A DNA stretch of 64,000 nt. It comes from Escherichia coli (lineage in GTDB: Bacteria; Pseudomonadota; Gammaproteobacteria; Enterobacterales; Enterobacteriaceae). Every line of letters begins with the position of its first letter. Position 1 is the stretch's first letter. Location: assembly GCF_001677475.2 (NCBI RefSeq), contig NZ_CP015229.1. One strand, given 5' to 3'. The notes beneath the pieces were generated by a model, which saw nothing but the letters and a program-made list of their open reading frames with translations, was not told where the DNA came from and ran no database searches. This document shows positions 54,476-63,818 of the stretch, piece by piece. Position numbers and translations under genes: made by a program.

Positions 54476-54551
54476 GGCCCCTTAGCTCAGTGGTTAGAGC
54501 AGGCGACTCATAATCGCTTGGTCGCTGGTTCAAGTCCAGCAGGGGCCACCA
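54476..54551 (+). tRNA. ileX: tRNA-Ile2 (anticodon CAU, lysidine-modified), ileX-type
   Basis: 76-nt cloverleaf GGCCCCTTAGCTCAGTGGTTAGAGCAGGCGACTCATAATCGC...GGGGCCACCA with CAT anticodon and encoded CCA; differs from both Met tRNAs. Confidence 0.85.
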
Positions 54552-54765
54552 GATTTCAATGAATTACAGATGTATCCAAACTATCTTGCTTTACCAGGAT
54601 ACTTATAGGATACCTCTGAGAAGTATTAACAAGTAAGAATTGGCTCATGCCTACAGAACAGTTGGGTCGTAGCAGCCGTTCACCTGCGAACAAGAAAGTG
54701 CTACGGGTCTGAACTTTTGCCCCCAACTCTCCAAGAGACCGGCAAAAACCCTGACGGAGGTATCA

Positions 54766-54909
54766 ATGGATACTTTAAGAAAGGGCTCAGACCTGCTGTC
54801 TGCACGTGTGATTGCCGTTACAGGTTTAATCGCAGCACTTGGCAATTTAGGTCTATGCCCAATAGCCGTAGTGCTAGTATGTATAGCTTTAGTTATCATG
54901 CTGAAGTAA
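54766..54909 (+). CDS. Candidate 47-aa small membrane peptide (MDTLRKGSDLLSARVIAVTGLIAALGNLGLCPIAVVLVCIALVIMLK)
   Basis: ATG preceded by GGAGG at correct spacing; followed by GGCCCAGCtttcGCTGGGCC hairpin; rare codons (TTA, AGA, CTA, ATA); below the ORF-track size cutoff. Confidence 0.35.
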   Translation: MDTLRKGSDLLSARVIAVTGLIAALGNLGLCPIAVVLVCIALVIMLK

Positions 54910-55652
54910 TGACAGCGTAACAAGCTCGGCCCAGCTTTCGCTGGGCCTCCCATTTCTACCTCCCAAAATCTATTAGAAACAATAAGCCACTAAAGAAAGA
55001 GCTTTTGCTGGCTACAATACTCACATACAAACAATTTTTATTTTTCGCGGGCGTAAAAAAACGATGGGGCTGGCAGTCCGGAAGACGTCAGGGTACAGAG
55101 ATTTGTACCCGCCTCTCCCTGTGCATGAGCACAATAAGTAACCGAAGGCGGAATTCCGCCCTCGGTACTCACATATGAGAAACGATATTTCTTCCACCGA
55201 TACCCTTTATTTGGGTATCGCGAGTAAGCCCCAAAATCTGGGTGTTACTCTTACTACCCAAACTACGGGTAGTTTCCGTAGTTTCATGGTCGAGTTGCAG
55301 ATCTGCAACTCACCCACCAGCCAACGCAATTTTGCGTTATCGGGAATATCAGCAAGTTACCGCCGCAGTCGTTCCGGCTTCTTCCACTGGTAAGTATTTT
55401 TCGCGCTCTCCCTCCGTTGTTGAGAACGGCGACGGTATGCCAGCAACTCAAGGACTCTGATCCGTATGTCGCGCATATCCACGCCGTTAAGCTCGATACC
55501 GTCACGGCGCATCATCTCTGCCACCACACGCGCGTAATTTTCGGCTATCACGCTGTCCGGCTGCGTGGCCTCCTATTTGCTTGATGGTTGTTTGATTCCG
55601 GTAACGCGGCGGATTAATCCCAGCAATTCAGATTCTGTCATAGTGCGCTACG

Positions 55653-55992
55653 TTACTTGTCTTTATTCGGCTGCAACTTATCCGGCACATTTCCGGTAGT
55701 TTCCATCAGGTAATCAGCCAGTATCTGTGGGAGGTTGTCGGCAACTCTGGCACTGGCATTACAGGCTTTAACCACTTCCCTTTTAAGCCCATCCAGCATA
55801 GCGGGGGTAATGTGTGGGAAGCTCCTTTGCATAGTAAGCGGGAGGCTGTCCATGATTGATGAAATCTGACTCGCCAGTTTTGAAAGCGCGTACATGCAAA
55901 ACTCTGTATCAATCACGTCACCGCGATCGCGCTCGTTTTTAAGTTCCTGCGCCTCCGCCTGTGCTGTCAGTAATCTGATCCTGACTCGTAAG
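55653..55992 (-). pseudogene. Nu1-like small terminase subunit, C-terminal fragment (gene split by IS insertion)
   Basis: Translation ...LLTAQAEAQELKNERDRGDVIDTEFCMYALSKLASQISSIMDSLPLTMQRSF... resembles the lambda Nu1 C-terminal half; frame is open up to the IS boundary. Confidence 0.7.
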
Positions 55993-56085: not shown

Positions 56086-57465
56086 GTGACGCTCAATACT
56101 TCTCAGGTCAGTTACTATATGACTCAGCGTAAGAAAGGTATAACTCAGCATATCTCGGCCATGAAGGCTGGTATCTCAGTCCGTTCTGGTCGTCGGATCG
56201 AAAAAGGAGAGTGGGCAAAAAACAGTGTTCGGCACTGGCGCACACGCAAAGATCCTCTGGAAGCTGTGTGGGACAGCATGCTTGTTCCTCTGTTGAAAGA
56301 GAGGCCGGCTCTGACACCAACAACTCTACTGGAGATGCTACAGGATAAATATCCCGGCCAGTACCCCAACAGCCTTCGAAGAACAATGCAACGGCGGGTT
56401 CGCGAATGGAAACTACAGTATGGTACAGAGCAGGAGGTCATGTTCCGCCAGCAACATCAGCCCGGCCTGCGAGGCCTGTCGGACTTTACTGAACTGAAAG
56501 GTGTAGTTGTCACCATCGCCGGTAAGTTGTTGGCGCATAAGTTGTATCACTTCCGTCTGGAATGGAGCCACTGGAGCTGGATGCGGGTTGTTCTGGGTGG
56601 TGAGAGCTTCTCTGCTCTGGCTGAAGGCCTGCAGGAAGCCCTCGGACAACTGGGCGGAGTGCCGGTAGAACATAAAACGGACAGCCTGAGGGCAGCATGG
56701 AAACAACAGGGCGAAGATGGACGCCGCGAGCTGACTGAGCGTTATGCTACTCTCTGTCAGCACTACGGAATGCAGGGCGTACACAATAATGCCGGTCGGG
56801 GCCACGAAAATGGCTCGGTTGAAAGTGCCCACGGACATCTGAAAAGGCGTATCTGTCAGGCGCTGATACTGCGGGGCAGTAACGACTTCAGCACCATAGA
56901 AGAATATCAGGCCTTCATCACTCAGCAGGTTATGCGGCACAACCGTAACAATCAGGATCTGGTCAAGGAAGAACGTCTTCATCTGAAACCGCTGCCGCTT
57001 CGTCGCAGTGCTGACTATGATGAGCTGACTGTGAGGGTTAGTCGCAGCAGTACCATCAATGTGAAGCACGTCGTCTACAGCGTACCTTCCCGGCTTGTAG
57101 GTCAACTGTTACGGGTCAGGTTATGGGACGATCGTCTGAGCTGTTACGTTGGCAGCAGCGAGGTCATGAGCTGCCCTCGCGTCAGACCAGAAAAAGGGAA
57201 GACGCGGGCCCGTCGTATCGACTTCCGACATGTGATCGACAGTCTGGCAAAAAAGCCCGGTGCGTTCTGCCATGCAACGCTGAGAAATGACATCCTGCCG
57301 GACGATGAATGGCGGAGGCTGTGGCGTCGCTTATGTAATCATCTGGAGCCCGATATGGCAGGAAGGCTGATGGTACATGCCGGGAAACGTGGATCTGCAC
57401 CGGCTGATGCGCTTCCTGGGTATAAAAGAAAAGGCGTTGCCGGTAGTCAATGTGATACAGCATAA
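56086..57465 (+). CDS. istA: IS21-family transposase IstA
   Basis: 459-aa ORF (GTG 56086; ATG at 56119 also possible); N-terminal HTH-like region and DDE-type catalytic core typical of IstA. Confidence 0.8.
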   Translation: MTLNTSQVSYYMTQRKKGITQHISAMKAGISVRSGRRIEKGEWAKNSVRHWRTRKDPLEAVWDSMLVPLLKERPALTPTTLLEMLQDKYPGQYPNSLRRTMQRRVREWKLQYGTEQEVMFRQQHQPGLRGLSDFTELKGVVVTIAGKLLAHKLYHFRLEWSHWSWMRVVLGGESFSALAEGLQEALGQLGGVPVEHKTDSLRAAWKQQGEDGRRELTERYATLCQHYGMQGVHNNAGRGHENGSVESAHGHLKRRICQALILRGSNDFSTIEEYQAFITQQVMRHNRNNQDLVKEERLHLKPLPLRRSADYDELTVRVSRSSTINVKHVVYSVPSRLVGQLLRVRLWDDRLSCYVGSSEVMSCPRVRPEKGKTRARRIDFRHVIDSLAKKPGAFCHATLRNDILPDDEWRRLWRRLCNHLEPDMAGRLMVHAGKRGSAPADALPGYKRKGVAGSQCDTA

Positions 57466-57510
57466 CCTGAGCAGTTATGAGCAACTACTGCGTGGCAAGG
57501 GAGGTTCGCA

Positions 57511-58266
57511 GTGAGCAATATCCATCACCTTGAACATAGCCTGCGTAAACTACGCCTGACACGAGTTGGAGCTGAATGGCACGCTCTGGAAAAACGAGCG
57601 CTGGCAGAAGGCTGGACACCATCGCGCTATCTTCTGACGCTATGCAATGAAGAACTCCTGTGGCGCGAGAGTGAAAAACTGCGTCGTTATAAAAAGGAGG
57701 CCCGGTTGCCAGTTGCCAAAACGCTGAGCGAATACGACTTCAGTCAGGTGCCGGAACTGAATGGAGCTCAGTTCCGGCAACTCTGTGAAACGACAGACTG
57801 GGTTGATGCAGGAGAAAACGTTCTGCTGTTCGGAGCCAGCGGGTTGGGGAAAAGCCATCTGGCGGCAGCGATCGTGGATGGCGTAGTAGGTCAGGGCTAC
57901 CGGGCCCGGTTCTACAGCGCAGGAGAGCTGTTGCAGGAACTACGTAAAGCCAGAGCTCAGTTGAAACTGAATGAGCTGCTACTGAAACTGGATCGCTACC
58001 GGGTGATAGTGGTGGATGATCTTGGCTATGTCAAACGCGATAGTGCCGAAACGGGTGTGCTGTTCGAGTTAATAGCGCATCGCTATGAACGTGGGAGCCT
58101 GGTGATAACCAGTAACCATCCGTTCAGCATGTGGGGCAGCATCTTCGTGGATGAGACTATGGCGGTGGCTGCGGCAGACAGGCTGATCCATCACGGATAT
58201 ATGTTCGAACTGAAAGGGGAAAGCTACAGGAAAAAGACAGCGAAGGCAGTAACAAGCGCGACTTGA
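57511..58266 (+). CDS. istB: IS21-family helper ATPase IstB
   Basis: 251 aa; Walker A FGASGLGKSHLA and Walker B VIVVDDLGY; GTG start with GGAGG RBS. Confidence 0.85.
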   Translation: MSNIHHLEHSLRKLRLTRVGAEWHALEKRALAEGWTPSRYLLTLCNEELLWRESEKLRRYKKEARLPVAKTLSEYDFSQVPELNGAQFRQLCETTDWVDAGENVLLFGASGLGKSHLAAAIVDGVVGQGYRARFYSAGELLQELRKARAQLKLNELLLKLDRYRVIVVDDLGYVKRDSAETGVLFELIAHRYERGSLVITSNHPFSMWGSIFVDETMAVAAADRLIHHGYMFELKGESYRKKTAKAVTSAT

Positions 58267-58331
58267 TGTCGCCCTGAAGGGTGCGGCCAGTATAGTTGGC
58301 GCGAGTCGGCAAAACTAGTTGACGTCTAATA

Positions 58332-58544
58332 TCGTAAGAGTTCATCATCATCAATCTCGCCTTTGTCGTTTGTAAGCTGGCTAATTGCATTGTTAACCCT
58401 ATTGTCTATCACGCTGGCAACATCATAAAACGCCTCACGGCCTTTACGTTCAACGGGAGTCACTCCCCACTTGTCGAATGCTGTAGCACTTACCCGGCAG
58501 CTTTGCGCCATGGTTTTTTTGTTCATCAGGTGCGATTTCATCAA
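58332..58544 (-). pseudogene. Nu1-like small terminase subunit, N-terminal fragment (gene split by IS insertion)
   Basis: MNKKTMAQSCRVSATAFDKWGVTPVERKGREAFYDVASVI... resembles lambda Nu1 N-terminal winged-helix region; frame runs into the IS and stops two codons inside it. Confidence 0.7.
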
Positions 58545-58639: not shown

Positions 58640-58725
58640 CCCCTGAAAAAGCTCATAAATAGCGAAAAACCGCGAGGTCGCCGCCCCGTAACGGGTCCAT
58701 ATGCCGGAAAGGACCCGTAAAAAAA
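58640..58725 (-). other. Lambda-type cos site (cosQ-cosN-cosB); cosN 12-nt cohesive-end sequence at 58675-58686
   Basis: Reverse strand reads ACGGGTCCTTTCCGGCATATGGACCCGTTACG-GGGCGGCGACCT-CGCGGTTTTTCGCTATTTATGAGC, near-identical to the lambda cos region as recalled; lies immediately upstream of the Nu1-like gene as in lambda. Confidence 0.7.
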
Positions 58726-58741
58726 GCCGGATTTCTCCGGC
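58719..58741 (-). terminator. Rho-independent terminator after the capsid operon
   Basis: Reverse strand stem GGCCGGAGAAATCCGGC followed by TTTTTTT. Confidence 0.5.
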
Positions 58742-59520: not shown

Positions 59521-60576
59521 TTAAGCAATTTTGACGGTAACAAATTTGCGAATATCTGCCGGTACCGGCTGCGGTGCGCTGTGCGTCTGCACGTACTCAA
59601 TCGCCGGATCGCCATCCTCAATCCAGTTTTTCGGGTAGTACATGTTTTGCGTTGCGCCAGTTCTTACCGCTTCCGGATCCATAATCGCACCATAGGCCAC
59701 CAGCCCTTTATTGTTAGTGTTGCCCAGGACAAGCAAATCAGGCTCAAGGAAATATTTTTCGGTGCCATCGCTGTCGGTGTATTTGCCGGAATAGACGATA
59801 AGGGCCAGATCACCCAGATAGCCTTTAAAGCTCACCACTTCGCCCAGGTTTTTACAGGCCAGCTCTGCGGCGGATTCTGAACCACGGGAAAGATCGTACA
59901 GTTCACGGAATTTTTTAAAGCTGCGTAACGTGCGCCATACCTCAGCGCCCATAATCATGACGTTGGCGGGGCAACCAGCCTGATCGGTGTATAGTTCGAT
60001 GTCATAGATTGGATCGTGTGTTTCCTTATCTGCCTCAGACCACTTTTTGCCCGATCCCTGCGTAATGATGTTTTTAGTCGGGATTTTCCAGTCGATTTCG
60101 TATCTATTTATTCCTTCGCCCTCAATGATGTTTTTTCCGGTCGTGACCGCATTCACCGCCAGCCATTCTATGCGAGCTTTAATAGCGTTTACCTGGCGGC
60201 GCATGTTGCCAGTAATCAGGCGCATACGGCGATAAGTTGGATCGTTAAGCTGTGCCGGATCTTCTCCAGCCATGCGCATGATGGTTTTTGATGGATCGAT
60301 TTCGTGTTTTGGTTTCATATAGCCAGGGCGGATAGTGCTTGTTTCGTACCCTTTATCGCGCTGAACCTGACTCCCCACCATAGGCGAACAAAAAGCCGAC
60401 ATGGTGACTTCTTCAATATCCAGGGTATCTAACATGATGTCCTGCGTGTTGAAGGTTGCCACGTTCGGGAAAAACAGCGACGTAAACAGCGGACTGAATT
60501 TAAATTCCGAAATATCCCCACGATTCAGGTACGCGAAAAGCTGGTTAGTGTTAAGTGCCGTTGCTTTGCCTGTCAT
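59521..60576 (-). CDS. Major capsid protein, lambda gpE-like
   Basis: 351 aa; blocks FKFSPLFTSLFF and PGYMKPKHEIDP, YPKNWIEDGDPA, SAPQP match lambda E motifs (FKFDPLFLRLFF, PGYVKPKHEVNP, YPKNWVTTGDPA, SAPLM) as recalled; similar length. Confidence 0.85.
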   Translation of the reverse strand: MTGKATALNTNQLFAYLNRGDISEFKFSPLFTSLFFPNVATFNTQDIMLDTLDIEEVTMSAFCSPMVGSQVQRDKGYETSTIRPGYMKPKHEIDPSKTIMRMAGEDPAQLNDPTYRRMRLITGNMRRQVNAIKARIEWLAVNAVTTGKNIIEGEGINRYEIDWKIPTKNIITQGSGKKWSEADKETHDPIYDIELYTDQAGCPANVMIMGAEVWRTLRSFKKFRELYDLSRGSESAAELACKNLGEVVSFKGYLGDLALIVYSGKYTDSDGTEKYFLEPDLLVLGNTNNKGLVAYGAIMDPEAVRTGATQNMYYPKNWIEDGDPAIEYVQTHSAPQPVPADIRKFVTVKIA

Positions 60577-60782
60577 TATTCACCCCCATGAGTCTGATTC
60601 ATGCCCAGCGCCGCGCGTAAATAGGCGCGTACCTGCCAGCCTGTTGACGGCTCAACCATCGCCAGCGGCTCAAGTCCTGCCGCAATGCCTGCTTTTACGT
60701 TCTGCTGGTGGCGTTCCTTGAGCGCCTCCACGATGTCTGGGCTTATGTAAACTGTCACCCCGCCTTTTTTCTCTTCTGCCAT
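60576..60782 (-). CDS. Hypothetical 68-aa protein, first gene of the capsid operon, translationally coupled to the capsid gene
   Basis: ORF 60576-60815 from GTG; better start at internal ATG (MAEEKKGG) with AGAGGA RBS; stop TAA overlaps capsid ATG by 1 nt. Confidence 0.45.
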   Translation of the reverse strand: MAEEKKGGVTVYISPDIVEALKERHQQNVKAGIAAGLEPLAMVEPSTGWQVRAYLRAALGMNQTHGGE

Positions 60783-60820
60783 AGTCGGAAATTCCTCTTT
60801 GACGTTAAAAATCACAACTG

Positions 60821-60852
60821 GATGTTCATCCAGTTGTGATTATAATCATGAT
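60821..60852. promoter_or_regulatory. Perfect 14-bp-arm palindrome upstream of the capsid operon (candidate operator; contains CTG-N10-CAG)
   Basis: AATCACAACTGGATG-TTCA-TCCAGTTGTGATT about 40-70 bp upstream of the operon start. Confidence 0.4.
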
Positions 60853-60993
60853 TTCATTTTACGCAATAATGTTGAGTTGTGTTGCAAATTGTGAAATGAT
60901 TTCCGGCAACAGTAGTCACCATACTGTTAGATAAAAGCCTCATATGCAAAAGCCCGATAAGACCCTCTGACCTTATCGGGCTTTTTTTGGGGC

Positions 60994-61018
60994 ATAAAAA
61001 AGCCGGACTTCTCCGGCT
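60994..61018 (-). terminator. Rho-independent terminator after the SSB-like gene
   Basis: Reverse strand AGCCGGAGAAGTCCGGCT followed by TTTTTT; adjacent second hairpin (60952-60988) with T-run on the + strand. Confidence 0.5.
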
Positions 61019-61033
61019 TCTGTTACTCGTTGC

Positions 61034-61456
61034 TTAAAACGGTATGTTATCCCCGTACGGATCATCGTTACCCGCCTGTTGTTTTGCCCTGTTCAGTGCG
61101 TCAGTAGCCTGCCCTTGCTGGCCTTTTTTGCCGCCCGGTCGCGCCGTTCTCGCACTGATTACGCTGTCTGCGATAACCTGCCAGCCCTGCCGCGTTTCGC
61201 CGTTCTGGCCTGTCCACTGGCTTACCTGCATGTTACCCGCCACGCTCACCAGTTCGCCTTTGTGGTGTTTTGCCAGTGCGTCGGCCTGTCTGCCAAACGC
61301 CAGGACGGATAACCACATCGTCGCCGTTCCGTCATCTGCCTGGCTGCACGGAAGGGGGACCGCCATACTAGCCATCGTCATTTGTGTACCCTTGCTGGTG
61401 GTCTTTAACTGCGGGTCAGCCACCAGCCGCCCGTAAGCCGCTATCTGTGCTGTCAT
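61034..61456 (-). CDS. SSB-like single-stranded-DNA-binding protein (divergent OB fold with conserved acidic C-terminal tail)
   Basis: 140 aa; Gly/Gln-rich linker and C-terminus DDPYGDNIPF resembling the SSB tail (DFDDDIPF). Confidence 0.55.
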   Translation of the reverse strand: MTAQIAAYGRLVADPQLKTTSKGTQMTMASMAVPLPCSQADDGTATMWLSVLAFGRQADALAKHHKGELVSVAGNMQVSQWTGQNGETRQGWQVIADSVISARTARPGGKKGQQGQATDALNRAKQQAGNDDPYGDNIPF

Positions 61457-61740: not shown

Positions 61741-61980
61741 ACCCTTCACCTGTTCACCTTTTGATATTTTCCATTTAAATTCATACTGTTAAGGGGTGAA
61801 CAGTTTCACAAAAACTATTCACCAACTGTTCACCACTGTTCACCCTTGAAGCTCAATAAACAACCAAAAAGGTGAACAGTGAATAGTTTGGTGAATAGTT
61901 CATAAATAACTGTTCACCCTATAATATACTGATATAAAAGATATTTATGACAGGGTGAACAGTGGTGAACAGTTATTCCA
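61741..61980. repeat. Iteron array: at least 8 perfect copies of TGTTCACC (both orientations) plus degenerate copies; candidate replication origin
   Basis: Direct reading: CCTGTTCACC, GGGGTGAACAGT, ACTGTTCACCACTGTTCACCC, AGGTGAACAGT, ACTGTTCACCC, GGGTGAACAGTGGTGAACAGT in AT-rich context between the helicase and SSB genes. Confidence 0.75.
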
Positions 61981-61985
61981 TAAGT

Positions 61986-63818
61986 TTAATTTTTGCTATC
62001 GTCATTAGTGACTGATACACATGATGGCATCCAGTCTTCTGATTCCTCCGTCAGTGTCACGTTTGAACGTAAACCGTGCTTCGTTTTCCGTTTTATATAC
62101 TCCCTGCCATATTCCGCCATTGCCCCAGGCATATCTTTACCGAAGCGCGTCAGTGTTACAGGTTTACCAAACCCATGAGCCCTCATATAAGCCAGATAGG
62201 CATGATAGAGATACCTGCGCGGGCTGAATGGCACAATTTCAGCATTACCCACTAACAGGCCATCACACATTACCGACGCCATGAGATAGCCGCAGAAGTC
62301 CACCAGCGAATCCCCCTCTCGCTTTATCGCCAGTGCTTCTTCAGATTTCTGCTGCTCATATAACAGGCGTCTGGCTTCGTCCTGGTCAGCAAACCTTGTA
62401 AGCAGATGGCGAATCACTACCGCCAGCTCACCTTCTATTTTTTCCGCCAGCATCGGATCGCGTTCGTTCTCCGGTACAACTTCCGAAAAATTGAATATCA
62501 CCCGACGACGTGAGATCCCCCCGCTGCGGTCACTGAATGACATGGCGTTATTGTTAACCGCCAGCACTACTGCCGGAATACGCGTTGAGTAGGGGGCTTT
62601 GTGTTTCGGGTCAATTGCCACCTTGTCACCGCCTGTAATGGCCTTAATTCCTGCCCCATCACCAGCGTAGCGGGTCATATCCGGCATGATAATCAGCGAA
62701 AAGCCAACCACTAACGCGCGTTCCCTTGCATCTTCCAGCGCCTTCATGCTTGCCGATACTGTGTTGGCCTTACCCGCCAGCATGGTGCAAATCTCCGCCA
62801 TCACGCTTTTACCACTTCCCCCTGGACCTGTTACCTCAATGAATAACTGCCAGTCGTACCGGTTCGCCAGCACCATGAATAATGCAGCCAGTACGCGATC
62901 CGCCTTGCGGTCATTCTCAGCCACCGAACGGCGTAACCACTTCCAGAAATTCGGCGCATGTGTTGCCAGCGTTTCCCCCTCTGCTGGTGGGCTGAAAGGT
63001 AATTCACTGGCAATTAACAACCAGTCGTTTTTGTTATGCTCCCGAAAATTACCTGTTCTGGTATCAAATACCCCGTTACTGAATCCAATCAGGTTACGGG
63101 CTGTATTCCCCATTACAGGCAAACTTAACTTCATGGTATCGACCGCCGATTTAATGGCGTTCTGCGAATAGCTGATCTCCGCATCAATGAAAATCTGCGC
63201 CATAGCACGCTGTAACTCTTTATCCTGAACCGGCTCCCATACAACGCCGTTGTAATGGTGAACAGTGTCAGAGTCAGCATGAATCGCCAGTTCACCGCCA
63301 TAATGTGCCAGGAGAACTTCGCCGCGTTGACTTGCTCCCATCTGGTTAAGCGCCAGTGATGAAGCGTTATCGTCTTTTACCCGCTCTTTTTTCTTTACAG
63401 GCAGTTCAACTACCTTTTTCTTTTCCGCCAGCTCTGCCCGTTCACGTTCCAGATATTCGCGCCAGTTCTCCCGTTTCTGGCTGTGCATTCCTTCAGGATA
63501 ATAATCAGCATCCCTGACACCTGCCGCTGCCAGTTTCTGCCCGATGGTATTAACAAGCCCCGGACGCAATAACCCCGCCTGGTAGAGACGCACACGATAG
63601 CGTCCGTCCGGTACGATTTGCAGGTTGTCCAGTTCGGCAAGTTGTTGCTCTCCAAGCCAGACAGGAGGCACGTTATCGCCAGCCAGTCGCCCGTCCTGTT
63701 CCTGCCACTGCTTCGCATGTGCCCACGCATCACTACCCGCAAAAATGATGACTTCCGTCATTTTGTCACGTGGCTGGTGTTTTAAATTTGGCGCTTTTTT
63801 CATTTCTGCTCTCTCCAC
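61986..63818 (-). CDS. Replication initiator/helicase, SF3 (D5-like) family, P4 alpha-type
   Basis: 610 aa; Walker A GPGGSGKS in a D5/SF3-helicase-like core; sits next to the iteron array; start may be at a downstream Met. Confidence 0.75.
   Translation of the reverse strand: MERAEMKKAPNLKHQPRDKMTEVIIFAGSDAWAHAKQWQEQDGRLAGDNVPPVWLGEQQLAELDNLQIVPDGRYRVRLYQAGLLRPGLVNTIGQKLAAAGVRDADYYPEGMHSQKRENWREYLERERAELAEKKKVVELPVKKKERVKDDNASSLALNQMGASQRGEVLLAHYGGELAIHADSDTVHHYNGVVWEPVQDKELQRAMAQIFIDAEISYSQNAIKSAVDTMKLSLPVMGNTARNLIGFSNGVFDTRTGNFREHNKNDWLLIASELPFSPPAEGETLATHAPNFWKWLRRSVAENDRKADRVLAALFMVLANRYDWQLFIEVTGPGGSGKSVMAEICTMLAGKANTVSASMKALEDARERALVVGFSLIIMPDMTRYAGDGAGIKAITGGDKVAIDPKHKAPYSTRIPAVVLAVNNNAMSFSDRSGGISRRRVIFNFSEVVPENERDPMLAEKIEGELAVVIRHLLTRFADQDEARRLLYEQQKSEEALAIKREGDSLVDFCGYLMASVMCDGLLVGNAEIVPFSPRRYLYHAYLAYMRAHGFGKPVTLTRFGKDMPGAMAEYGREYIKRKTKHGLRSNVTLTEESEDWMPSCVSVTNDDSKN

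What the first reader, a model, noticed from the sequence alone, without database searches (positions are those of the whole stretch)
55091..55338. Cluster of six short hairpins/palindromes downstream of the split terminase gene
Within about 250 bp there are six separate inverted repeats: GGGTACA-gagatt-TGTACCC, ACCGAAGGCGG-aatt-CCGCCCTCGGT, CGATACCC-tttattt-GGGTATCG, ACTACCC-aaactac-GGGTAGT, GTTGCAGATCTGCAAC and AACGCAATTTTGCGTT. No convincing protein-coding frame covers them. This density of structure suggests a structured RNA or an array of protein-binding sites (for example att-proximal or regulatory sites) rather than random sequence.
Basis: seen in the sequence. Interest (0 to 1): 0.45.

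Follow-up and report, generated by a model that had tools for sequence, protein, structure and literature searches.

The report
Phage-satellite cos site and palindrome cluster
The hairpin cluster is real and far from random: it is the conserved non-coding tail of a phage satellite (PICI) inserted at the ileX tRNA gene, made of a copy of a helper-phage DNA-packaging (cos) site, a terminator-like hairpin and a palindrome-rich block of unknown function that many E. coli satellites share.

Summary
The window holds 8 perfect inverted repeats in 261 bp, against 0.1 expected. The RNA fold z-score is about -9 on either strand.

The region is the 3' non-coding end of a PICI-type satellite integrated at ileX. 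It is a mosaic.

- **55033-55119:** about 88% identical to the genome termini and HNH-terS spacer of SfV/SfI/ST64B-type phages. It matches SfI's mapped 10-nt cohesive end at 9 of 10 bases (55066-55075). Hairpin 1 is the dyad next to that cos site.
- **Hairpin 2:** the only terminator-like site, on the minus strand.
- **Hairpins 3-5:** these lie in a 123-bp core that is 92-96% conserved in classical and capsid-forming PICIs.
- **Hairpin 6:** the palindrome of an "IHF-consensus + palindrome (+Chi)" unit. This unit forms arrays at the same position in about a third of E. coli genomes.

The region is not the att arm, not the replication origin and not the lambda-type cos; those lie elsewhere in the window. 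Rfam finds nothing, and RNAalifold gives no covariation support for the core. A structured RNA is therefore unproven but not excluded. The cos assignment is solid by homology. The function of the core and units is inferred only.

The parts
55033..55119 (-). SfV/SfI/HK97-type cos region (a copy of a helper-phage packaging site)
   Evidence: It is 84-90% identical to the termini of phages SfV, SfIV, SfI, SfII and ST64B. It also matches the HNH-terS(P27) spacer of E. coli prophages. The same site type lies downstream of the phrog_1561 gene in at least 27 distinct satellite sequences.
55066..55075 (-). Predicted cosN cohesive-end decamer (minus strand TGCCAGCCCC)
   Evidence: It matches the experimentally mapped SfI cohesive end 5'-TGCCCGCCCC-3' (PMC3636060) at 9 of 10 bases. 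The record ends of SfV and SfI bracket this spot. The A allele is the commoner one among satellites.
55091..55110 (.). Hairpin 1: the dyad next to cos, about 25 bp on the right-end side of cosN
   Evidence: A dyad is kept at this position with different arms: GGTCA..TGACC in the phages, GGGT(A)CA..TGTACCC in satellites, and GGGAT-N4-ATCCC in other satellites.
55141..55166 (-). Hairpin 2: terminator-like stem-loop followed by TTACTTATT
   Evidence: It is the only terminator-like site on either strand in 54552-55700. It has a G.U pair on the minus strand. It is degenerate in the L004-type satellites and lacks the U-rich tail in the L006 type.
55194..55316 (-). 123-bp conserved palindrome-rich core (hairpins 3, 3', 4 and 5), function unknown
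   Evidence: It is 92-96% identical in classical PICIs and capsid-forming PICIs whose flanks are unrelated, and 78% identical in the L006 type. It contains two TACCC-N7-GGGTA dyads 54 bp apart. It also contains the heptamer repeats AAACTAC x2 and GTAGTTT x2.
55198..55220 (.). Hairpin 3, CGATACCC-N7-GGGTATCG
   Evidence: The outer pair changes from C-G to T-A in 5 sequences, with T.G intermediates in 4. The loop is variable.
55222..55250 (.).
   Evidence: Seen in the minimum-free-energy folds. The outer stem carries uncompensated changes of both kinds.
55253..55284 (.). Hairpin 4 and its alternative (ACTACCC/GGGTAGT or AAACTACGG/CCGTAGTTT)
   Evidence: Nine-base deletions that remove one AAACTAC copy occur in the L006 and L013 types.
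55292..55311 (.). Hairpin 5: 20-bp palindrome GAGTTGCA-GATC-TGCAACTC with a Dam site at its centre
   Evidence: It is almost invariant.
55314..55321 (-). Chi octamer (GCTGGTGG on the gene-sense strand)
   Evidence: It is oriented for RecBCD entering from the cos right end. It is present in most window-type units but not in all types.
55323..55338 (.). Hairpin 6: the palindrome of an 'IHF-consensus + palindrome' repeat unit
   Evidence: Stems change with compensation between satellites: ACGCA/TGCGT, GTGCA/TGCAC, GCCCA/TGGGT and GGCGG/TCGCC. The hairpin sits at a fixed offset of 21-24 from the motif in the unit family.
55347..55359 (+). IHF-binding consensus TATCAGCAAGTTA (WATCARNNNNTTR), overlapping the stop codon of the upstream gene
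   Evidence: This motif occurs 106 times in one orientation against 16 in the other in 47.7 kb of such arrays, where about 1.5 are expected. Binding by IHF was not tested.
55357..55641 (-). Last gene of the satellite's packaging operon (phrog_1561, 94 aa, unknown function); a pseudogene here
   Evidence: There is an in-frame TAG at 55573-55575. The hairpin region starts at its stop codon.

Best explanation
The 55033-55359 stretch is the right-terminal cis-acting, non-coding region of a PICI-type phage satellite integrated at ileX. It is a mosaic of four modules. In gene sense (minus strand) they run in this order.

1. One 'IHF-consensus + palindrome + Chi' unit, which contains hairpin 6.
2. 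A 123-bp core conserved at the sequence level, which contains hairpins 3-5 and one more hairpin.
3. A terminator-like hairpin (hairpin 2), which probably ends the packaging-operon transcript.
4. A complete SfV/SfI/HK97-type cos site, whose proximal dyad is hairpin 1.

Inferred mechanism:
- A helper phage of the SfV/HK97 type (P27-family TerS, TerL and an HNH protein), or the terminase of a co-resident capsid-forming PICI, would recognise this site in satellite concatemers. It would cut at 55066-55075 and leave 10-nt 3' cohesive ends.
- This would give the satellite a second packaging route. The first route is its lambda-type cosQ-cosN at 58640-58730 with the Rpp/TerS-like gene.
- Modules 1-3 would be transcribed as the operon's 3' UTR. 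They also offer DNA-level features (an IHF bend site, a Chi site facing the cos right end, and dyads) whose roles are not established.

What is shown: identity, homology, position, conservation and the recurrence of the architecture.
What is inferred: cleavage, termination, IHF binding, and any role of the core.
For: **Satellite context**
- Genes present: a D5_N/Pox_D5 primase, SSB, a lambda-E-like capsid protein, a lambda-D-like decoration protein, and a TerS/Rpp-like gene split by an IS21-family element.
- The island is bounded by a 49-bp repeat of the ileX 3' end.

**cos site**
- 55033-55119 matches the termini of SfV, SfIV, SfI, SfII and ST64B, and the prophage HNH-terS spacers.
- SfI's mapped cohesive end TGCCCGCCCC (PMC3636060) is matched at 9 of 10 bases.
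- At least 27 distinct satellite sequences carry the same layout downstream of the phrog_1561 gene: a dyad, then about 25 bp, then GGAC[CT]GCC[AC]GCC, then A/T tracts with ACCCGCGAAA.
- At least 9 further distinct contigs have the lambda-type cosN and this cos 0.8-1.7 kb apart (mostly about 1.3 kb) in the same orientation.
- 348 of 5426 E. coli genomes hold the contiguous cos + core block.

**Terminator**
- Hairpin 2 is the only terminator-like site in the region.

**Unit family**
- IHF-consensus hits are 106 sense against 16 antisense, with about 1.5 expected.
- The hairpin lies at a fixed offset.
- 57% of units have a perfect stem of at least 5 bp, against 7.8% of shuffles.
- The arrays are restricted to satellites: 1731 of 5426 genomes, median one place per genome. 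The Sakai 'prophage Sp7' capsid-forming PICI is one example.

**Core**
- It is 92-96% conserved across otherwise unrelated flanks.
Against: - No cleavage or packaging data exist for this site.
- The cohesive-end decamer differs from the phage version at one base, and the dyad differs from the phage dyad.
- This PICI encodes no HNH protein, TerL or P27-type TerS, so it depends on a helper that is not in the window.
- This particular copy is decaying (IS21 in the Rpp-like gene, a nonsense codon in the last gene) and may be inactive.
- Some capsid-forming PICIs (L005 type) carry the core and the arrays but have their cos-like sequence between HNH and terS. The core is therefore not tied to an adjacent cos.
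- The terminator call is a weak consensus match: 1 found against 0.9 expected in the region. The hairpin is degenerate in some lineages.
- The IHF assignment rests on consensus alone.
Confidence: 0.6

Rival explanations
1. The core, or the whole 55140-55356 stretch, acts as a structured non-coding RNA from the minus strand. It could be a 3'-UTR-derived sRNA or an mRNA-stabilising and processing module of the packaging operon that ends at hairpin 2.
For: - The stretch starts at the stop codon of the last operon gene, and no terminator comes before hairpin 2.
- The minimum free energy is lower on the minus strand (-105.8 vs -95.1 kcal/mol).
- Units keep one orientation relative to the operon (106:16).
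- Unit hairpins keep pairing while their sequence changes.
- Non-Watson-Crick cells are more often G.U in the gene sense than A.C (142 vs 88 cells summed over the helix tallies).
- The first hairpin of the unit and the outer pair of hairpin 3 show compensatory changes.
Against: - There is no Rfam match, even at E<=10.
- The RNAalifold covariation term is +0.49, with only 2 of 63 pairs compensated.
- Stems in the core are no more conserved than loops and linkers (p=0.57).
- The z-score is no better on the minus strand than on the plus strand.
- The L006-type variants carry G.U pairs on the plus strand instead.
- Several palindromes are perfect with 0-2-nt spacers, which is typical of DNA dyads.
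- No promoter-like site is present.
Confidence: 0.25
2. The core is a DNA-level binding platform for a sequence-specific protein. That protein could be a satellite or helper regulator, or a packaging-specificity factor such as the adjacent phrog_1561 protein. It would bind the paired TACCC-N7-GGGTA dyads and the AAACTAC/GTAGTTT repeats, possibly together with IHF.
For: - The core is conserved as sequence rather than as structure.
- The only two exact TACCC-N7-GGGTA dyads in the 64 kb lie 54 bp apart here.
- The arms are conserved while the 7-nt spacers vary.
- The cos-proximal dyad in satellites has shifted towards the same TACCC arm.
- Other satellites carry clear protein-site arrays in the same position: GTGAC repeats at 10-bp spacing, and ori-like GCGGGTTA iterons.
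- The phrog_1561 gene is always adjacent.
Against: - No binding protein has been identified.
- The phrog_1561 protein has no recognisable DNA-binding domain, and its structure model is poor (pLDDT 60).
- 32 of 48 phrog_1561 loci with enough downstream sequence lack the core.
- The core occurs in satellites with different integrases, replicases and packaging modules, so no obvious cognate partner co-varies with it.
Confidence: 0.25
3. A small protein is encoded on the plus strand (55175-55393, MRNDISSTDTLYLGIASKPQN...).
For: The frame is open through the core in every variant examined, including those with 9-nt (in-frame) deletions. Some genomes annotate a hypothetical protein there.
Against: - Variable columns fall 13/8/15 on codon positions 1/2/3, and most changes are non-synonymous.
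- No ribosome-binding site is evident upstream of the ATG (direct reading of the sequence).
- The C-terminus differs in every lineage, and the L005 type lacks the start.
- The ORF matches no PHROG or NCBIfam family.
Confidence: 0.04
4. The hairpins are integrase, Xis or IHF arm sites of attP/attR.
For: The region lies at the island end. It contains an IHF consensus, and lambda attP uses IHF.
Against: - The att core is 54506-54554 and the arm-type repeats are at about 54594-54614, which is at least 480 bp away.
- The same block occurs in satellites inserted at ileX, clpS/cspD, tqsA, hpt and phoQ, and inside prophages, each with different outer arms.
Confidence: 0.02

Closest known systems
cos sites of HK97-like / SfV-SfI-SfII-SfIV-ST64B phages (10-nt 3' cohesive ends; terminase assisted by an HNH protein)
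   Same: About 84-90% identity over 87 bp. The cohesive-end decamer matches at 9 of 10 bases. The upstream dyad and the downstream A/T tracts with ACCCGCGAAA are present. HK97 TerS recognises an A-tract 15-29 bp downstream of the cut (PMC11331095).
   Different: It is not flanked by HNH and terS; it lies after the last gene of a satellite operon. It carries satellite-specific alleles in the decamer (A for C) and in the dyad (TGTACCC for TGTGACC). Cleavage is untested.
Satellites that carry helper cos sites: P4 (P2 cos), SaPIbov5, and EcCICFT073 with cos1/cos2 and Rpp
   Same: A satellite carries a copy of a helper packaging site. EcCICFT073 has two cos sites and an Rpp that retargets helper TerS (PMC6092414, PMC6739421). 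This island also has a lambda-type cosQ-cosN next to a TerS/Rpp-like gene.
   Different: Both EcCICFT073 cos sites are lambda/phi80-like. Here the second cos belongs to a different packaging family (HK97/SfV type). The papers read here do not describe such a combination.
BIME-1 / RIP elements of E. coli (REP palindromes flanking an IHF site) - comparison from my own knowledge
   Same: Short GC-rich palindromes are coupled to an IHF consensus. They are repeated in tandem in non-coding DNA after the last gene of an operon. Roles at both the DNA level (IHF, gyrase) and the RNA level (3' stabiliser) are plausible.
   Different: There is no REP consensus. The units are not dispersed over the chromosome: the median is one locus per genome and they are confined to satellites. 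The palindrome sequence is variable, whereas the motif TAACCCGYTGATATTTTCGG is conserved.
Terminal Chi clusters of lambdoid phages that lack recombination modules (phage LLS; PMC12315714)
   Same: Chi is enriched in the satellite's terminal non-coding DNA: 1 per 677 bp, against about 1 per 5 kb in the chromosomal part of the window. The window's Chi faces the cos right end, which is the active orientation in LLS.
   Different: The orientation bias is weak overall (49 sense vs 37 antisense). The sequences counted are related by descent. No RecBCD dependence is known for these satellites.

Membership tests
HK97/SfV-type cos site | Sequence homology to an experimentally mapped cos, including the 10-nt cohesive end | tested here: met
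   84-90% identity to the SfV, SfI, SfII, SfIV and ST64B termini. Matches TGCCCGCCCC at 9 of 10 bases.
HK97/SfV-type cos site | Located between the HNH endonuclease gene and terS | tested here: not met
   In the window it follows the phrog_1561 gene, and no HNH or terS(P27) gene is adjacent. This placement is the rule in at least 27 distinct satellite sequences.
HK97/SfV-type cos site | A-tract TerS recognition element a few helical turns downstream of the cut | tested here: inconclusive
   T7 and A5 tracts and ACGCCCGCGAAAAAT follow the decamer, as in SfV. The equivalence to HK97 positions +15 to +29 was not established.
HK97/SfV-type cos site | Cleavage by terminase/HNH giving cohesive ends, and packaging | not testable with these tools
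   Requires virion DNA end mapping or a transduction assay.
Lambda-type PICI cos (EcCICFT073 cos1/cos2) | cosN GGGCGGCGACCT with cosQ upstream | tested here: not met
   There is no match with up to 3 mismatches inside 55033-55359. The exact match lies at 58675-58686.
Known structured RNA family (Rfam 15) | Covariance-model match | tested here: not met
   Nothing at gathering threshold. At E<=10 there is only a chance hit to a 22-nt plant-virus pseudoknot model.
Structured RNA (generic) | Base pairs maintained by compensatory substitutions | tested here: inconclusive
   For the core, the covariation term is +0.49 with 2 of 63 pairs compensated. Stems are no more conserved than loops. The unit hairpin (hairpin 6) and the cos dyad (hairpin 1) do keep pairing with changed sequence.
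Intrinsic terminator | GC-rich stem-loop followed directly by a U-rich tract | tested here: met
   Met for hairpin 2 on the minus strand only, and this is a consensus-level match. The other hairpins lack a T tract.
attP/attR arm sites | Adjacent to the crossover core, and specific to the integrase or integration site | tested here: not met
   The att repeat and arm repeats lie at 54506-54614. The block is shared across different integration sites.
Satellite replication origin (P4-type) | Cluster of initiator iterons (TGTTCACC) next to the primase gene | tested here: not met
   No iteron lies in the finding. Eight copies on both strands (plus near-copies) lie at 61751-61971.
BIME/REP elements | REP consensus and hundreds of dispersed chromosomal copies | tested here: not met
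   The arrays occur at a median of one place per genome, in satellites only. The absence of a REP consensus rests on my own knowledge of that consensus.
IHF binding site | WATCARNNNNTTR with an A/T-rich element on its 5' side | tested here: met
   TATCAGCAAGTTA at 55347-55359. Binding itself is not testable here.

The most novel reading that the evidence does not exclude
E. coli PICIs and capsid-forming PICIs share a satellite-specific non-coding 'tail' that, as far as I could find, has not been described. It consists of arrays of IHF-site + variable-palindrome (+Chi) units and, in one widespread lineage, a 123-bp palindromic core conserved at the sequence level. One PICI lineage also combines a lambda-type cos/Rpp system with a complete HK97/SfV-type cos in the same orientation. 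That lineage could therefore be packaged by two unrelated helper families, or into the capsids of a co-resident capsid-forming PICI (a satellite exploiting another satellite).
Probability: 0.3. Interest if true: 0.6.

Novelty: new variant of a known kind. Interest (0 to 1): 0.45.

Why it matters
Which packaging sites a phage satellite carries determines which helper phages can spread it, along with any virulence or defence cargo. A PICI lineage with two cos sites of different families would have a wider helper range than the lambda/phi80 model described for EcCICFT073. It would also make cross-talk between classical and capsid-forming PICIs directly testable.

The conserved core and the IHF/palindrome/Chi arrays mark a cis-acting or RNA-level function in a well-studied element class that nobody appears to have examined. 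They give clear deletion targets. If they turn out to be only a 3' UTR and recombination linkers, the finding is ordinary.

Tried and rejected
- **Rfam**, at gathering threshold and at E<=10: nothing relevant.
- **Lambda-type cosN inside the finding:** absent. It lies at 58675-58686.
- **att arms:** rejected.
- **P4-type origin:** rejected. The iterons are at 61751-61971.
- **Coding ORF on the plus strand:** no codon-position signal and no family match. A 26-aa minus-strand ORF (MKLRKLPVVW...) is truncated in the L006 type.
- **Phage database search of 55120-55356:** no match. This also makes a P2/P4-type cos unlikely.
- **Genome-contig scan with a 16-mer:** only chance hits in unrelated phyla. 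The scan was wasted.
- **Covariation:** RNAalifold on 15 variants gives no support for the core, and stem versus loop conservation does not differ.
- **G.U versus A.C asymmetry to pick the strand:** mixed result.
- **Function of the neighbouring phrog_1561 protein:** no Pfam or NCBIfam hit, all homologues are 'hypothetical', and the AlphaFold model has pLDDT 60, so no fold search was run.
- **Chi as an oriented shield:** Chi is enriched, but orientation is only 49:37.
- **Unit motif as a replication iteron:** it only partly resembles the TAACCCGC iterons of the Sp7 origin.
- **Literature:** searches by gene tag, sequence strings and PICI+Chi+RecBCD terms found no description of this region, and term look-ups inside the two cf-PICI papers found none either.
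Full report
**Observation**

The six inverted repeats are all present at the reported positions. The folds show a seventh: GAGTAA..CCCA-aaatc-TGGG..TTACTC at 55222-55250.

The density is far beyond chance.
- There are 8 perfect inverted repeats (arms of at least 7 bp, loop of at most 8) in 261 bp.
- In 2000 dinucleotide-preserving shuffles the mean was 0.096 and the maximum 2.
- The stretch ranks first among 491 sliding windows of the 64 kb.
- As RNA, 55120-55356 folds with z = -8.9 on the minus strand (-105.8 kcal/mol) and z = -9.5 on the plus strand (-95.1 kcal/mol).

**Context**

The window is E. coli-like chromosome: an FMN riboswitch, a Sib RNA, dnaG, rpoD, mug and tRNA-Ile2(CAU) ileX at 54476-54551. 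Downstream of ileX lies a PICI-type phage satellite with all genes on the minus strand:
- a D5_N/Pox_D5 primase (61986-63818);
- SSB;
- a lambda-E-like capsid protein (59521-60576);
- a lambda-D-like decoration protein;
- an HTH protein;
- a TerS/Rpp-like gene split by an IS21-family element (N-terminal part 58326-58544, C-terminal part 55653-55916; istA/istB 56086-58266);
- a 94-aa gene of unknown function (phrog_1561, 55357-55641), which here carries an in-frame TAG.

In the intact relative in strain KC-Dl-1 the island is bounded by a 49-bp direct repeat of the ileX 3' end. Arm-type repeats GGTATCCTATA[AG]GTATCCTGG sit beside both copies. In the window these correspond to 54506-54554 and about 54594-54614. 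The finding is therefore the non-coding stretch between the last operon gene and the att-proximal arm. It is not the att arm itself.

Two other cis sites lie elsewhere.
- An exact lambda cosN (GGGCGGCGACCT) with lambda-like cosQ is at 58640-58730, upstream of the Rpp-like gene.
- A P4-type origin with eight exact TGTTCACC iterons (plus near-copies) is at 61751-61971.

**The region is a mosaic**

BLAST against 5426 complete E. coli genomes splits it into pieces with different distributions.

*Segment 55033-55119 (contains hairpin 1).* On its own it matches the spacer between the HNH endonuclease and P27-family terS genes of many prophages. It also matches the physical ends of Shigella phages SfV and SfIV (record position 1 corresponds to window 55082), SfI (record end corresponds to 55066), SfII, and Salmonella ST64B.

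The SfI paper mapped a 10-nt cohesive end, 5'-TGCCCGCCCC-3' (PMC3636060). The window has TGCCAGCCCC on the minus strand at 55066-55075.

A motif search across all fetched loci found 27 distinct satellite-context sequences, plus the SfV and SfI termini, carrying the same layout: a dyad, then about 25 bp, then GGAC[CT]GCC[AC]GCC.., then A/T tracts with ACCCGCGAAA. In the satellites whose phrog_1561 gene lay on the fetched stretch, it sits 122-1017 bp downstream of that gene. The dyad keeps its symmetry with different arms:
- GGTCA..TGACC in the phages;
- GGGT(A)CA..TGTACCC in this lineage;
- GGGAT-N4-ATCCC in others.

Hairpin 1 is thus a conserved element of a cos site, most simply a DNA recognition dyad. 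At least 9 further distinct contigs have the lambda-type cosN and this cos in the same orientation 0.8-1.7 kb apart, mostly about 1.3 kb. The contiguous cos + core block occurs in 348 genomes.

*Hairpin 2 (55141-55166).* This is the only terminator-like site on either strand between 54552 and 55700. It has a G.U pair on the minus strand and a TTACTTATT tail. It is degenerate in some lineages.

*Core 55194-55316 (hairpins 3, 3', 4 and 5).* It is 92-96% identical in classical PICIs at ileX and clpS/cspD, and in a lineage next to a 5'-truncated prophage terminase gene. It is equally conserved in capsid-forming PICIs (terL/terS-P27/HNH/portal) whose flanks are unrelated. It is 78% identical in a lineage where an Abi gene follows it. 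It has no match in 50,697 phage records. Some satellites carry two copies about 430 bp apart.

The core contains the only two exact TACCC-N7-GGGTA dyads in the window, 54 bp apart. It also contains AAACTAC x2 followed by GTAGTTT x2, and a 20-bp palindrome centred on GATC.

*Hairpin 6 and the sequence up to the stop codon.* These form one unit of a repeat family. Downstream of phrog_1561 genes, satellites that lack the core still have 300-1000 bp of short perfect hairpins. The units read TAAC[CT]CG[TC]TGAT[AT]TTT[CT]CG[GA]AAA, followed at offset 21-24 by a 4-11-bp palindrome of variable sequence. Often a Chi octamer follows.

The conserved motif is the reverse complement of the IHF consensus WATCARNNNNTTR with an adjoining A/T tract.
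- It occurs 106 times in one orientation and 16 in the other in 47.7 kb of 57 distinct arrays, where about 1.5 are expected.
- 57% of units have a perfect stem of at least 5 bp, against 7.8% of shuffles.
- The arrays occur in 1731 of 5426 genomes, at a median of one place per genome. They are satellite-specific rather than a dispersed repeat.
- Sakai 'prophage Sp7', a capsid-forming PICI, has six units in 860 bp.

**RNA or DNA?**

Points in favour of an RNA role:
- The stretch begins at a stop codon with no earlier terminator.
- The units are co-oriented with the operon.
- Unit hairpins keep pairing with changed sequence.
- Wobble pairs are somewhat more frequent in the gene sense.

Points against, or neutral:
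- Rfam finds nothing.
- RNAalifold on 15 variants gives a covariation term of +0.49, with 2 of 63 pairs compensated.
- In the core, stem columns vary as often as unpaired ones (27/66 vs 17/48, p = 0.57). The core is conserved as sequence, not as structure.
- The L006-type variants put their G.U pairs on the other strand.
- Several palindromes have 0-2-nt spacers.
- There is no promoter-like site.

A plus-strand ORF stays open in all variants but shows no codon-position bias (13/8/15) and matches no family.

I conclude that a structured RNA is neither shown nor excluded. The DNA-level assignments (cos, IHF consensus, Chi) rest on firmer ground.

**Chi**

The window's unit carries GCTGGTGG on the gene-sense strand (plus-strand coordinates 55314-55321), about 240 bp inside the predicted right end. 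That is the orientation recognised by RecBCD entering from that end.

Chi density in different sequence classes:

| Sequence class | Chi sites | Length | Density |
|---|---|---|---|
| Terminal non-coding DNA of these satellites | 86 | 58 kb | 1 per 677 bp |
| Adjacent satellite coding DNA | 109 | 192 kb | 1 per 1.76 kb |
| Chromosomal part of the window | 11 | 54 kb | about 1 per 5 kb |

This recalls the terminal Chi clusters of lambdoid phages that lack recombination modules (PMC12315714). However, the orientation bias here is weak (49:37) and the sequences are not independent.

**What does not fit neatly**

L005-type capsid-forming PICIs keep the core and the arrays at their end, but have a cos-like sequence between HNH and terS. 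The core is therefore not an obligatory part of a neighbouring cos. The same terminal zone in other satellites holds other cis elements:
- GTGAC repeats at 10-bp spacing just upstream of cos;
- ori-like GCGGGTTA iteron modules;
- small cargo genes flanked by units.

The zone looks like a hub for cis-acting sites and cargo exchange.

**Comparison with what is known**

Satellites that carry helper cos sites are established: P4, SaPIbov5 and EcCICFT073. EcCICFT073 has two lambda/phi80-like cos sites and Rpp (PMC6092414, PMC6739421). The PICI and capsid-forming PICI papers I read do not locate a cos in this tail, and neither those papers nor my literature searches describe the arrays. I did not find a description of a lambda-type plus HK97-type cos pair on one PICI.

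**Verdict**

The att idea is wrong and the RNA idea is unproven.

The best reading is a satellite terminal region made of a second, HK97/SfV-type cos, a terminator-like hairpin, and conserved palindromic modules of unknown role. This copy sits in a decaying island (IS21 insertion, nonsense codon), so it may be inactive here even if the module is functional in relatives.

Noticed in passing
window 58640-58730 (minus strand): An exact lambda cosN (GGGCGGCGACCT, 58675-58686) with lambda-like cosQ and flanks lies just upstream of the N-terminal fragment of the TerS/Rpp-like gene and after a terminator hairpin. The satellite's lambda-type cos is here, not in the finding.
   Followed up: partly
window 56086-58266 (with 55653-55916 and 58326-58544): The 'split terminase' is a lambda-Nu1/Rpp-like small-terminase homologue (phrog_57/phrog_1790). 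It is interrupted by an IS21-family element (istA-like 459 aa, IstB_IS21 251 aa).
   Followed up: yes
window 61751-61971: Eight exact copies of the P4-type iteron TGTTCACC on both strands, plus near-copies, lie directly downstream of the D5-type primase gene. This is presumably the satellite's replication origin.
   Followed up: partly
window 55573-55575 (minus strand TAG): The phrog_1561 gene next to the hairpins has an in-frame stop at codon 23. Together with the IS21 insertion, this suggests the island copy is decaying.
   Followed up: yes
window 54766-54909 (+), hairpin 54928-54947: A 47-aa strongly hydrophobic ORF (MDTLRKGSDLLSARVIAVTGLIAALGNLGLCPIAVVLVCIALVIMLK) is followed by a GC hairpin. 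It is convergent with the satellite operon. It was seen in the ileX-integrated relative (L001/L259); the clpS-site satellite (L002) diverges at 55035. It has no PHROG or NCBIfam match and could be a small membrane toxin.
   Followed up: partly
window 54506-54554 and about 54594-54614; L259 8112-8160 and 8269-8289: The att site is a 49-bp direct repeat of the ileX 3' end. Arm-type repeats GGTATCCTATA[AG]GTATCCTGG lie beside both copies. The integrase gene sits at the end of the island far from the tRNA gene.
   Followed up: yes
L004 (NZ_CP027766.1) and L265 (NZ_CP148328.1, 10,790 bp circular): One satellite lineage with the same core lies directly against a 5'-truncated lambda-like terminase gpA gene inside a prophage. 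This may be integration into a helper's terminase gene. A record deposited as a 10.79-kb 'plasmid' is a circular PICI of this lineage (int, alpA, primase, capsid-protease fusion, DUF1441, phrog_1561).
   Followed up: partly
L184, L189, L204, L207, L257 (first ~130 nt after the phrog_1561 gene): In these satellites the space between the last gene and the cos site holds 4-5 GTGAC(A) repeats at 10-bp spacing. This looks like a protein-binding array on one face of the helix.
   Followed up: no
L195, L196, L209, L249, L021, L039, L077 terminal arrays; L266 6733-7104: These carry ori-like modules in the satellite tail: GCGGGTTA x3, then an A/T-rich stretch with an IHF-like site, then TAACCCGC x3. 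The same iteron occurs 11 times (as AACCCGCA) directly downstream of the primase gene of Sakai Sp7. The unit motif TAACCCGYTGAT partly resembles this iteron.
   Followed up: partly
terminal non-coding DNA of 64 distinct satellite loci (L179-L258): The Chi octamer is about 7-fold enriched relative to the chromosomal part of the window (1 per 677 bp). Many satellites have a conserved CGCTGGTGGGC about 50 bp beyond the cos decamer. The orientation bias is weak (49:37).
   Followed up: partly
window ~60700-61100: This is the second most inverted-repeat-rich stretch of the island (2-3 perfect inverted repeats per 261 bp), in the gap between the capsid-side genes and the SSB gene.
   Followed up: no
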